This document shows, piece after piece, positions 39,001-42,000 of a stretch of 64,000 nucleotides of DNA (the stretch's first letter is position 1; each line of letters opens with the position of its first letter). The stretch lies in the NCBI RefSeq assembly GCF_057098645.1, contig NZ_CM169472.1, one strand, 5' to 3'. Position numbers: made by a program.

Positions 39001-42000
39001 ATACATTTACTCTAAAGAAACAGGTCGGATGCTGTGTAGTGACTGCGTGTTTGACATCATAAGATACAAGTATCTTGGATGTTCTGCCAGCATTAGCAAT
39101 ATAGGTGAAGTGTACGAAGGGAAAGATATAACTGATAGAGCAGAAAGTTGAAGCCCCAACTGCTGTAACAGTCAGGGCTTCGTTATCAACAAATCGGCTT
39201 AGGAAATATTGACATGAAAAGTATAGCAAAGGCACAAAACGATTTCACTATCTTCAAATTCGGCGACAGTGAAATCCGCGTCATCAACAAGTGCGGTGAG
39301 CCGTGGTTTGTAGCTAAAGATGTTTGTGATGCTTTAGCTTTGACTAACTCACGCAAGGCGCTTACTGCACTTGATGACGATGAAAAGGGAGTAACTTTAA
39401 GTTACACCCTTGGTGGTGAGCAGAATCTAAGCATTGTGAGCGAATCAGGTATGTATACATTGGTTCTGCGCTGCCGCGATGCAGTCAATAAAGGTTCAGT
39501 CCCGCACAAATTCCGCAAGTGGGTAACAGCAGAAGTTCTGCCTTCAATTCGCAAACATGGCGAGTATGTAAAAGGAAAGAAAACCACTGTTGAGGAAAGA
39601 ACACCGCTACGCGATGCAGTAAACATGCTGGTAGGAAAGAAAGGACTTCGCAATGACGATGCATACAATATGGTTCATCAGCGTTTTGGTATTGACAGCA
39701 TTGATGAGCTTTCAATTGAACAAATCCCGCTTGCCGTAGAGTACATCCACAGGGTAGTGCTTGAAGGTGAATTCATTGGCAAACAAGAGAAGAGCACCAA
39801 CGAGCTTTCCGCAAAAGAAGCAAACAGCCTTGTATGGCTATGGGATTATGCCAACCGCTCACAGGCATTATTCCGCGAACTGTATCCGGCGCTAAAACAA
39901 ATTCAATCGAACTATTCCGGCAGATGCTACGACTACGGTCATGAGTTCTCGTATGTTATTGGAATGGCGAGAGACGTTTTAATTAATCACACACGAGATG
40001 TTGATATCAATGAGCCAGACGGACCAACGAATCTTTCCGCATGGATGAGACTTAAGAATAAAGAATTACCTCCTTCACCGCATCACTACTAACAGATTGC
40101 CAACGAAATGACCCAGCTTCGGCTGGGTTTTTATCAGGAGTTCTCATGCTCTATAGCAATATATTGGCGCACGCCCGGCGATGTGCGCCAGCGGAGTCGT
40201 GCGGCTTCGTGGTGAGAACGCCGGAAGGGGGAGTGGTATATCCCTTGTGTGAATATTTCTGCAGAGCCGGAGGCGTATTTTCGTATCGCACCGGAAGACT
40301 GGCTGCGGGCAGAGATGCAGGGGGAGATTGTGGCACTGGTCCACAGTCATCCCGGTGGGCTGCCCTGGCTGAGCGAGGCTGACCGGCGGCTGCAGATAAA
40401 AAGCGCACTGCCCTGGTGGCTGGTCTGCCGGGGTGACATTCACAAATTCCGCTGTGTGCCACATCTGACAGGACGGCGCTTTGAGCACGGGGTGACGGAC
40501 TGTTACACGCTGTTCCGGGATGCTTATCATCTGGCGGGGACTGAAATGCCGGATTTTCATCGCGAGGATGACTGGTGGCGCAACGGTCAGAACCTGTACC
40601 TGGACAATATGGCGGTCACCGGCTTTTACCGGGTGCCCCTGTCCTCTGCACAGGCGGGCGATATTCTGCTGTGCTGCTTTGGTGCTTCGGTACCGAACCA
40701 TGCCGCCATTTACTGCGGCAACGGTGAGCTGCTTCACCATCTGCCTGAACAACTGAGTAAACGGGAGAGGTATTCCGAAAAATGGCAACGACGAACGCAT
40801 TCAGCCTGGCGTCACCGCCACTGGCACGTATCTGCCTTCACGGGGATTTACAACGATTTGGCCGCCGCCTCAGCCTGTATGTGAACACGGCAGCGGAAGC
40901 CATCCGTGCCCTGTCGATGCAGATGCCGGGATTCCGCCGTCAGATGAACGAAGGCTGGTACCAGATACGTATTGCCGGTGATGACACGGCACCGGAGGCG
41001 GTGTACGCCCGTCTTCACGAACAGCTGGGTGAGGGAACGGTCATCCACATTGTGCCGCGACTGGCCGGGGCCGGAAAGGGCGGACTGCAGATTGTGCTGG
41101 GGGCGGCAGCCATCGTGGGGTCGTTCTTCACGGCCGGGGCATCAATGGCGTTATGGGGTTCAGCCCTGGCAGCCGGTGGTTTTTCTGCCACCACGATGCT
41201 GTTTTCTCTGGGGGCCAGCATGATTCTGGGTGGTGTGGCTCAGATGCTGGCCCCGAAGGCTAAAGTACCGGAGTACAAAAGCACGGATAACGGCAGACAG
41301 AACACGTACTTTTCCTCGCTGGATAACATGATTGCCCAGGGGAACCCGATGCCGGTGCCTTACGGTGAAATGCTGGTTGGTTCACGACGGATATCCCAGG
41401 ACATCAGCACCCGTGATGAGGGCGGAGACGGGAAAGTGGTGGTTATCGGGCGGGGATGAAAATAAAAAAATCCCGCAGAGTTAGCGGAGCTGCGGGAGAG
41501 AACGATGAAGATTAACGTTATGGAGTTATTTTTCAGGCATCAAAAAAGTAATGCAGCGTCATTATTGCGGCTACAGGCAATTGCCGGAAATGTGAAGAGT
41601 TTCAGAAATTTTATTCCGTCATAACACAGGCACCCTCCGGGGTGCCTGTTGTTTTCTGGCATAAACAGATTCAGACATCAGACAGGAGAGGGGGACAGAG
41701 TGGGTAAAGGGGGCGGCAAGGCGCACACGCCGGTAGAGGCGAAGGATAATCTCAAATCCACGCAGATGATGAGTGTGATTGATGCGATTGGTGAGGGACC
41801 GATAGAAGGCCCGGTGAAGGGACTGCAGAGTATCCTGGTGAACAAAACCCCGCTGACGGACACGGACGGTAATCCCGTGATACACGGTGTGACTGCGGTC
41901 TGGCGTGCCGGGGAGCAGGAGCAGACACCACCGGAAGGCTTTGAGTCCTCCGGAGCTGAAACCGGACTGGGCGTGGAAGTGACGAAGGCAAAGCCGGTGA

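What the first reader, a model, noticed from the sequence alone, without database searches (positions are those of the whole stretch)
40146..40884. Tail gene K is frameshifted
The gpK-like reading frame switches around 40250 between two overlapping ORFs (40146..40382 and 40249..40884) that together parallel a single lambda gpK. If real and not a sequencing error, the prophage cannot make complete tail tips. Together with three IS insertions and the missing Q, that points to a defective prophage retained for its cargo.
Basis: partly seen in the sequence, partly recalled or inferred. Interest (0 to 1): 0.45.

Follow-up and report, generated by a model that had tools for sequence, protein, structure and literature searches.

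The report
Frameshifted tail gene K, defective prophage
The tail-assembly gene K of this effector-carrying lambda-like prophage of E. coli really is broken by one extra base; a second strain has the same break, so it is an ordinary pseudogene in a prophage that has also lost other essential functions.

Summary
K (40146..40884) is split into ORFs of 78 and 211 aa by one extra base at 40225-40231 (CCGGAAGGGGGAG). Intact relatives read CCGGAGGGGGAG or CCGGAAGGGGAAA. Removing one base restores a 245-aa Prok-JAB + NlpC/P60 protein, 86.7% identical to K of the lambda-like phage HK630.

It is not a sequencing error. An independent draft assembly of a different strain (GCA_032490095.1) is gap-free against the window and identical from 36990 to 40436, including the extra base. 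K is also the only unpaired out-of-frame coding indel in a 32-kb comparison with the closest prophage.

None of 5,426 complete E. coli genomes has the allele, so it belongs to a small clade. The shift lies exactly at the left edge of a ~0.5-kb tract that matches the K gene of another prophage type (PPompW-like). This suggests a slipped gene-conversion junction.

The prophage is defective in other ways too:
- Q is reduced to its last 52 codons next to an IS3-family element.
- An IS21-family element interrupts the ydaT-like gene.
- The portal gene is split.

The effectors NleL, EspN and EspK are intact. This is an ordinary, known kind of prophage decay, and interest is low.

The parts
40146..40884 (+). 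Tail tip assembly gene K (Prok-JAB + NlpC/P60), a pseudogene caused by a 1-base insertion
   Evidence: The repaired 245-aa product hits PF14464 and PF00877 and phrog_30 minor tail protein. It is 86.7% identical to 'tail component K' of phage HK630.
40225..40231 (+). Frameshift site: AAGGGGG, where intact alleles have AGGGGG or AAGGGG. The exact inserted base cannot be assigned within this run.
40146..40382 (+). Upstream ORF of 78 aa. Only the first 28 residues are native K (including Glu17 of the JAB motif); the remaining 50 are out of frame.
   Evidence: Pfam Prok-JAB matches residues 2-35 only, below the curated cut-off.
40249..40884 (+). Downstream ORF of 211 aa. It holds the JAB HSH..S..D zinc motif and the whole NlpC/P60 domain but lacks the first ~34 residues of K. 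The nearest Shine-Dalgarno-like GGAG lies 15 nt upstream of the GTG.
40227..40728 (+). Recombinant tract. The sequence is PPompW-like and differs at ~50 sites from the otherwise near-identical RM11626-C1 prophage. Its left edge coincides with the frameshift.
   Evidence: The tract body is 99.8% identical to the K gene of a second prophage in O145 RM9872 and strain 95-3192.
40234..40234 (+). Private C>T change (Arg>Trp in the K frame) 3-9 nt after the insertion. The assembly that shares the frameshift has it too.
40881..41459 (+). Tail assembly gene I, intact. Its GTG start overlaps the K stop codon (GTGA).
38434..40092 (.). Arc / Arc / Ant (Bro-N + P22_AR_C) module inserted between tail genes L and K
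15119..16434 (-). IS3-family element that replaces 2.65 kb (DUF968 gene, rusA, most of Q)
16435..16590 (+). Remnant of the late antiterminator gene Q (last 52 of 273 codons)
7624..10258 (+). IS21-family element (IstA-like and IstB) inserted in the ydaT-like gene
28417..31163 (+). Portal gene split into ORFs of 454 and 461 aa by a one-base deletion in a G run at 29762 (G6>G5)
   Evidence: The exact allele is in 121 complete genomes. The portal is a single ORF in RM12761 and in phage Stx2a_WGPS6.
54581..55474 (-). Truncated IS2 (IS3-family) transposase. Further IS fragments extend to about 56.1 kb.
47698..50046 (+). nleL (type III effector), intact
   Evidence: 100% protein identity.
50637..54038 (+). 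espN (type III effector), intact
56683..58044 (-). espK (type III effector), intact

Best explanation
K is a genuine, inherited pseudogene. One extra base at 40225-40231 moves translation into the +1 frame after codon 28, and the shifted frame ends at a stop codon at 40380-40382.

The break separates the N-terminal strand and catalytic Glu of the JAB/MPN domain from its HSH..S..D zinc site and from the NlpC/P60 domain. No full-length K can be made from this copy.

The extra base lies exactly where the prophage switches from sequence nearly identical to the syntenic O145 prophage to a ~0.5-kb tract that matches the K gene of PPompW-type prophages. That type sits elsewhere in the chromosome of related strains. 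The two parental alleles read AAGGGG and AGGGGG at this point, and the window reads AAGGGGG.

The most likely origin (inferred) is a gene conversion between co-resident prophages whose left junction slipped by one base in the G run. A C>T change a few bases downstream accompanies it.

By analogy with lambda, where K is required for tail assembly, this copy cannot support tail-tip assembly on its own (inferred). Early termination may also lower expression of the translationally coupled gene I (inferred).

The lesion is one of several. Q is deleted, the portal gene is split and IS elements have inserted, while the effector cargo is intact.

The confidence of 0.85 is for 'real, heritable, inactivating frameshift in a multiply defective prophage'. 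The sub-claim that the extra base arose at the recombination junction itself I put at about 0.55.
For: Indel and its position.

Repair and family: the repaired product has both domains. It is 86.7% identical to HK630 K, and K is one uninterrupted piece in 1,723 phage records.

The frameshift is real:
- Contig JAUERF010000075.1 of GCA_032490095.1 aligns to window 34893-40436 with 0 gaps.
- All 26 mismatches lie in gene H, so it is a different strain with the same allele.

The assembly is otherwise clean:
- In the 32-kb alignment with RM11626-C1, every other indel inside a gene is either paired within a few bases or 9 bases long. K is the only unpaired out-of-frame one.
- The 8.2-kb chromosomal flank has 0 gaps.

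The shift sits at a recombination junction:
- Against RM11626-C1 there is 1 difference in 38187-40224, about 50 differences in 40225-40728, and 1 difference in 40729-41622.
- The tract is PPompW-like.
- It is 99.8% identical to the K of a second prophage in O145 RM9872 and 95-3192.
- A relative with the same L allele (L007) has the in-frame RM11626-like K.

Other lesions.

Role of K: PMC12617516 and PMC10721106.
Against: No reads and no expression or assembly data are available, so loss of function is inferred and not shown. The link between the junction and the extra base is a coincidence of position: the marker-defined interval is about 37 bp. An ordinary crossover followed later by a slip in the G run, or by insertion of an A, gives the same sequence. 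Two draft contigs of related strains end exactly at 40224, which shows that assemblers have trouble at this point. I could not establish how independent GCA_032490095.1 is from the window's strain, beyond the 26 mismatches in gene H.
Confidence: 0.85

Rival explanations
1. The extra base is a sequencing or assembly artefact. It could be a consensus error beside a G5 run, or a chimeric consensus built from reads of several near-identical K genes in the same genome. On this view the real gene is intact.
For: The site adjoins a G5 run and lies at the boundary between unique and repeated prophage sequence. Two draft contigs from related strains break exactly at 40224. No complete E. coli genome carries the allele.
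Against: An independent assembly of a non-identical strain has the same extra base and the same private T at 40234, and runs 210 nt past the junction. T40234 is absent from the donor-type alleles I read (PPompW_EH1846), and no complete genome has it in this context, so mixing reads from those copies would not produce it. The window has no other unpaired out-of-frame indel inside a gene over the 32 kb compared, and none in the 8.2-kb chromosomal flank.
Confidence: 0.05
2. The frameshift is real but unrelated to recombination. It is an ordinary replication slip or single-base insertion that arose by chance at the edge of an older mosaic tract. This rival concerns only the origin of the extra base and is compatible with the main verdict that K is a real pseudogene.
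For: Lambdoid tail genes are mosaic everywhere, and G runs slip. The portal gene of the same prophage carries an independent G6>G5 slip.
Against: The only unpaired out-of-frame coding indel in 32 kb falls inside the ~37-bp interval that bounds the tract. The sequence is the exact union of the two parental variants (AA + GGGGG). A private substitution lies a few bases away.
Confidence: 0.3
3. The shift is bypassed, so functional K is still made. This could happen by +1 ribosomal slippage on GGG-GGA or CCC-UUG, by transcriptional slippage, or by internal initiation at GTG 40249 that yields a working N-terminally truncated K.
For: tRNA-Gly could re-pair one base downstream on GGGGG. The next in-frame codon, GGA, is rare in E. 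coli, and the run resembles a Shine-Dalgarno sequence. A +1 slip there would give ..TPEGEWYIPCVNIS.., which is almost the wild-type sequence (the rest is reasoning). K is not a virion component (PMC10721106), so it may be needed only in small amounts.
Against: The shift is not conserved. None of 11,521 K places in 4,201 complete genomes has it, and phage K genes are single ORFs. GTG 40249 has no well-spaced ribosome-binding site. The truncated product would lack the JAB N-terminus with its catalytic Glu.
Confidence: 0.05

Closest known systems
Bacteriophage lambda gpK (tail tip assembly protein K; JAB/MPN + NlpC/P60)
   Same: The repaired product has the same two-domain architecture. It occupies the same place in the tail operon between L and I, with a K-I start/stop overlap. 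It is 86.7% identical to K of the lambda-like phage HK630.
   Different: The gene is interrupted by a 1-base insertion after codon 28. An Arc/Arc/Ant module sits between L and K, which lambda lacks. The N-terminus reads MLYSN.. instead of the MTQTESA.. of lambda-like and PPompW alleles.
Defective effector-carrying lambdoid prophages of EHEC (the 'defective prophage pool' of O157 Sakai, e.g. Sp6; Asadulghani et al. 2009, PMC2669165)
   Same: It is a lambdoid prophage that carries non-LEE type III effectors (NleL, EspN, EspK). It has several lesions in regulation and morphogenesis genes and a short repressor without a peptidase domain. Co-resident prophages have very similar morphogenetic genes. 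See and PMC2669165.
   Different: This set of lesions is strain-specific: the K frameshift plus Q deletion plus IS21-family insertion. The K allele is absent from 5,426 complete genomes. I did not establish that this prophage is the counterpart of Sp6.
Syntenic potC/potB prophage of E. coli O145 RM11626-C1 (NZ_CP035768.1) and of O145:H28 RM12761 (NZ_CP007133.1)
   Same: They share the integration site and gene order. Identity is 98.5% over 32 kb of the late region with RM11626-C1 and 99.3-99.7% over the early region with RM12761. RM11626-C1 has the same split portal allele.
   Different: Both relatives have an intact K (245 aa) and an intact Q. The window has the PPompW-like tract with the frameshift, the Q deletion and the IS21-family insertion.

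Membership tests
Lambda gpK-type tail tip assembly protein | N-terminal JAB/MPN domain followed by a C-terminal NlpC/P60 domain in one polypeptide | tested here: met
   Met only after removing one base in silico: PF14464 at residues 2-103 (E 4.7e-15) and PF00877 at residues 109-222 (E 8.2e-13). phrog_30 minor tail protein, E 5e-157.
Lambda gpK-type tail tip assembly protein | A single uninterrupted reading frame of about 200-250 codons | tested here: not met
   The gene is split into ORFs of 78 and 211 aa in different frames. In 1,723 phage records K is one uninterrupted piece.
Lambda gpK-type tail tip assembly protein | Position in the tail operon between L and I, upstream of J | tested here: met
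   The order is H-M-L-(Arc/Arc/Ant)-K-I-J, as in annotated relatives.
Lambda gpK-type tail tip assembly protein | Close sequence similarity to K of a lambda-like phage | tested here: met
   86.7% identity over residues 4-243 to 'tail component K' of phage HK630.
Lambda gpK-type tail tip assembly protein | Required for tail assembly (genetic function) | not testable with these tools
   Known for lambda (PMC12617516).
Programmed ribosomal frameshift (recoding) site | The frame change is conserved among homologous genes | tested here: not met
   No E. coli complete genome has the shifted allele among 11,521 K places. Phage K genes are single ORFs. Only one other draft assembly shares it.
Programmed ribosomal frameshift (recoding) site | A slippery site with a stimulatory element and measurable frameshifting | not testable with these tools
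   GGG-GGA could in principle allow a +1 slip (reasoning only). No assay is possible.
Defective (cryptic) lambdoid prophage carrying type III effectors | Loss of at least one function essential for lytic growth | tested here: met
   Q is reduced to 52 of 273 codons, the DUF968 gene and rusA are absent, the portal gene is split and K is frameshifted.
Defective (cryptic) lambdoid prophage carrying type III effectors | IS elements inserted in the phage backbone | tested here: met
   An IS21-family element at 7624-10258, an IS3-family element at 15119-16434 and an IS2 remnant at 54581-55474.
Defective (cryptic) lambdoid prophage carrying type III effectors | Effector cargo kept intact | tested here: met
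   NleL, EspN and EspK are full length and 100% identical to those of RM11626-C1.
Defective (cryptic) lambdoid prophage carrying type III effectors | No infectious particles are produced without helper prophages | not testable with these tools
   This needs induction and plaque or transduction assays.

The most novel reading that the evidence does not exclude
The extra base is tolerated because ribosomes slip +1 on the GGG-GGA run, or on CCC-UUG 12 nt downstream, often enough to make small amounts of near-wild-type K. K is an assembly factor that is absent from the virion, so small amounts might suffice. The gene would then be leaky and not dead, and the prophage's tail module could still be used once late transcription is supplied in trans.
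Probability: 0.03. Interest if true: 0.45.

Novelty: already known. Interest (0 to 1): 0.12.

Why it matters
It matters little beyond annotation. K should be marked as a pseudogene and this prophage as multiply defective: no Q, a split portal gene, a frameshifted K and IS insertions. Its effector genes nleL, espN and espK are preserved. That pattern fits the established picture of EHEC prophages that decay while their virulence cargo is kept, and that can still be mobilised with help from co-resident prophages (PMC2669165).

One point is mildly instructive. The frameshift sits exactly at the edge of a tract copied from another prophage type. Recombination among co-resident prophages is usually seen as a route to repair or reassortment, but it may also be what inactivates genes.

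Tried and rejected
- I looked up the exact products of both ORFs, a 189-aa alternative start and the repaired 245-aa K in the 15-billion-protein collection. None was found. Gene callers evidently do not call these fragments, so this route could not show whether the allele is shared.
- I searched complete E. coli genomes with a 90-bp query across the site, and with a 114-bp 'repaired G4' version. There was no identical allele and the best match was 96.5-96.7%. Neither the shifted allele nor a simple in-frame parent with T40234 is therefore present among complete genomes.
- An exact 36-nt pattern search of IMG/VR viral contigs gave 0 hits.
- What worked was an exact look-up of the rare L-protein allele. 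It led to draft contigs that span the site.
- A PDB sequence search found only a distant JAB-domain protein (2kks, E 2e-4), so no structure of K itself is available.
- The terminator scan listed the hairpin before K (40111-40128) only on the minus strand. On the plus strand I read a hairpin followed by TTTTTATC by eye, and I make no claim from it.
- I considered a programmed frameshift and rejected it because the shift is not conserved.
- I considered a sequencing error and rejected it because of the independent assembly.

Full report
**1. The observation**

The window holds two overlapping same-strand ORFs, 40146..40382 (78 aa) and 40249..40884 (211 aa, GTG start), in frames offset by +1. Frame 0 reads MLYSNILAHARRCAPAESCGFVVRTPEG and then runs out of frame. 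The +1 frame reads ..GEWYIPCVNISAEPEAYF.. to the end of the gene.

I aligned the region with intact K genes from E. coli O55:H7 USDA5905, Stx2a phage WGPS6 and prophage PPompW_EH1846. The window has exactly one extra base, at CCGG[A]AGGGGGAG. The whole-prophage comparison and a five-allele alignment show the same indel.

That figure is simply where the first start codon of the second ORF lies.

Removing one base gives a 245-aa protein with Prok-JAB (residues 2-103) and NlpC/P60 (residues 109-222) domains. It hits PHROG 30 'minor tail protein' at E 5e-157. It is 86.7% identical to 'tail component K' of the lambda-like phage HK630, and it matches K as one uninterrupted piece in 1,723 phage records.

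**2. Real or artefact**

Three results bear on this.

- *The assembly is otherwise clean.* A 32-kb gapped alignment with the closest syntenic prophage (O145 RM11626-C1, 98.5%) shows 22 gap openings. All the others are intergenic, paired within a few bases, or 9 bases long. The K indel is the only unpaired out-of-frame one inside a gene. The 8.2-kb chromosomal flank has no gaps. Apart from the lesions listed in section 4, every reference protein compared maps onto the window full length without internal stops, or is simply absent from this mosaic.
- *The allele is rare.* A 90-bp query across the site finds no identical copy among 11,521 K-like places in 4,201 of 5,426 complete E. coli genomes.
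- *Another strain shares it, which is decisive.* The window's L protein is a rare allele, seen on 7 contigs. Fetching those contigs gave JAUERF010000075.1 of GCA_032490095.1. This contig aligns to window 34893-40436 with no gaps and 26 mismatches. All the mismatches lie in gene H (35012-36989). From 36990 to 40436 it is identical, including the extra base and the private T at 40234.

A different strain, assembled independently, therefore carries the same frameshift. A sequencing error is very unlikely.

**3. Where the extra base sits**

Against RM11626-C1 the window has 1 difference in 38187-40224. It then has about 50 differences in 40225-40728, and then 1 difference up to 41622.

The divergent tract is PPompW-like. 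Its body (40236-40760) is 99.8% identical to the K gene of a second, distant prophage in O145 RM9872 and in strain 95-3192, and 691 complete-genome records match it at 99% or more.

At the junction the RM11626-type allele reads GGAAGGGGAAAGA, the PPompW-type allele reads GGAGGGGGAGCGG, and the window reads GGAAGGGGGAGTGG. The window thus combines the left variant (AA) with the right variant (GGGGG), which is one base too many.

A relative with the same L allele (GCA_012646885.1) still has the in-frame RM11626-type K.

I infer that a ~0.5-kb gene conversion from a co-resident PPompW-type prophage entered this K gene. I infer further that its left junction slipped by one base in the G run, and that the C>T change at 40234 is associated damage. 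A normal crossover followed by a later slip cannot be excluded. The position argues for the junction origin, but it does not prove it.

Two draft contigs of related strains end exactly at 40224. This agrees with a boundary between unique and repeated sequence at that point.

**4. Consequence and context**

The break separates the JAB N-terminus from the rest of the protein. The N-terminal piece includes the Glu of PAESCG. The downstream piece holds the HSHPGGLPWLSEAD zinc site and the NlpC/P60 domain.

GTG 40249 has no well-placed ribosome-binding site, because GGAG lies 15 nt upstream. In lambda, gpK is required for tail assembly although it is not found in the virion (PMC12617516, PMC10721106). 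This copy should therefore be unable to support tail-tip assembly. That is an inference.

K is not the only lesion, and probably not the limiting one.

- Q is reduced to its last 52 codons (16435-16590). It lies next to an IS3-family element (15119-16434) that replaces 2.65 kb, including the DUF968 gene and rusA.
- An IS21-family element (7624-10258) interrupts the ydaT-like gene.
- The portal gene is split into ORFs of 454 and 461 aa by a G6>G5 change at 29762. It is a single ORF of 805-859 codons in RM12761 and in phage Stx2a_WGPS6. This portal allele is shared exactly by 121 complete genomes.
- IS2 and other IS remnants lie between espN and espK.

In contrast, NleL, EspN and EspK are full length and 100% identical to those of relatives. 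The prophage lies between potC/int and potB.

This is the pattern described for the defective prophage pool of O157 Sakai. There, prophages with morphogenesis defects can still be packaged and transferred with help from co-resident prophages that carry very similar genes (PMC2669165). Related EHEC genomes hold a median of 3, and up to 15, places similar to the K region.

**5. Comparison with what is known, and novelty**

The repaired gene is a member of the lambda gpK family by domain architecture, sequence similarity and operon position. The gene as it stands fails the single-ORF criterion, so it is a K pseudogene.

A programmed frameshift is rejected because the shift is not conserved. Leaky +1 slippage on GGG-GGA cannot be excluded, but nothing supports it.

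A frameshifted morphogenesis gene in a decaying, effector-carrying lambdoid prophage is a well-known situation. The only slightly unusual point is that the shift coincides with a recombination junction.

**6. Verdict**

It needs three corrections: the exact site of the shift, the split portal gene that was missed, and the possibility of trans-complementation. Interest is low.

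Noticed in passing
window 28417-31163 (shift at 29762): The portal gene is split into ORFs of 454 and 461 aa, with an ATGA stop-start overlap, by a G6>G5 change. It is a single ORF of 805-859 codons in RM12761 and in phage Stx2a_WGPS6. The exact 96-bp allele occurs in 121 complete E. coli genomes, among them serotypes O157:H7 and O111:H8, and PGAP marks it 'frameshifted' in RM11626-C1. It is unclear whether the two-ORF form is a widespread dead allele or a working variant.
   Followed up: partly
window 29943-30694: There are tandem 162-bp (54-aa) repeats in the C-terminal part of the portal reading frame. The copy number differs between relatives: the window has about two more units than RM12761.
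   Followed up: no
window 38434-40133: A P22 immI-like module sits inside the tail operon between L and K. It consists of two Arc-family genes on opposite strands plus a Bro-N/P22_AR_C antirepressor, and it ends in a hairpin followed by a T-run just before K. Many EHEC prophages and Stx phages share it, but PPompW prophages lack it.
   Followed up: partly
window 7624-10258: A 2.6-kb IS21-family element (IstA-like with rve and Mu-transposase C domains, plus IstB) is inserted in the ydaT-like gene next to cro. It is absent from the otherwise 99.3-99.7% identical early region of O145:H28 RM12761.
   Followed up: partly
window 15119-16590: An IS3-family element replaces 2.65 kb present in RM12761 (the DUF968 gene, rusA and most of Q), which suggests an IS-mediated deletion. 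In RM12761 and RM11626-C1, copies 97.8-97.9% identical to it sit at other positions in the same prophage.
   Followed up: partly
L007 (GCA_012646885.1 contig AASYRZ010000031.1) 4881-5239: In a relative with the same L allele, gene I is cut to 78 aa and joined almost directly to nleL. J, lom and the tail fibre genes have been lost. This is a different route of tail-module decay in the same prophage lineage, and nleL is kept again.
   Followed up: no
L009 and L010 contig ends = window 40224: Two draft assemblies of related strains end their contigs exactly one base before the frameshift site. Assemblers evidently see a branch there, at the boundary between unique and repeated sequence.
   Followed up: no
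window 6854-7261 (- strand): The cI-position repressor is a 135-aa HTH protein with no peptidase domain. Sakai prophages Sp4, Sp6, Sp9 and Sp10 have the same kind and are said to be non-SOS-inducible (PMC2669165).
   Followed up: no
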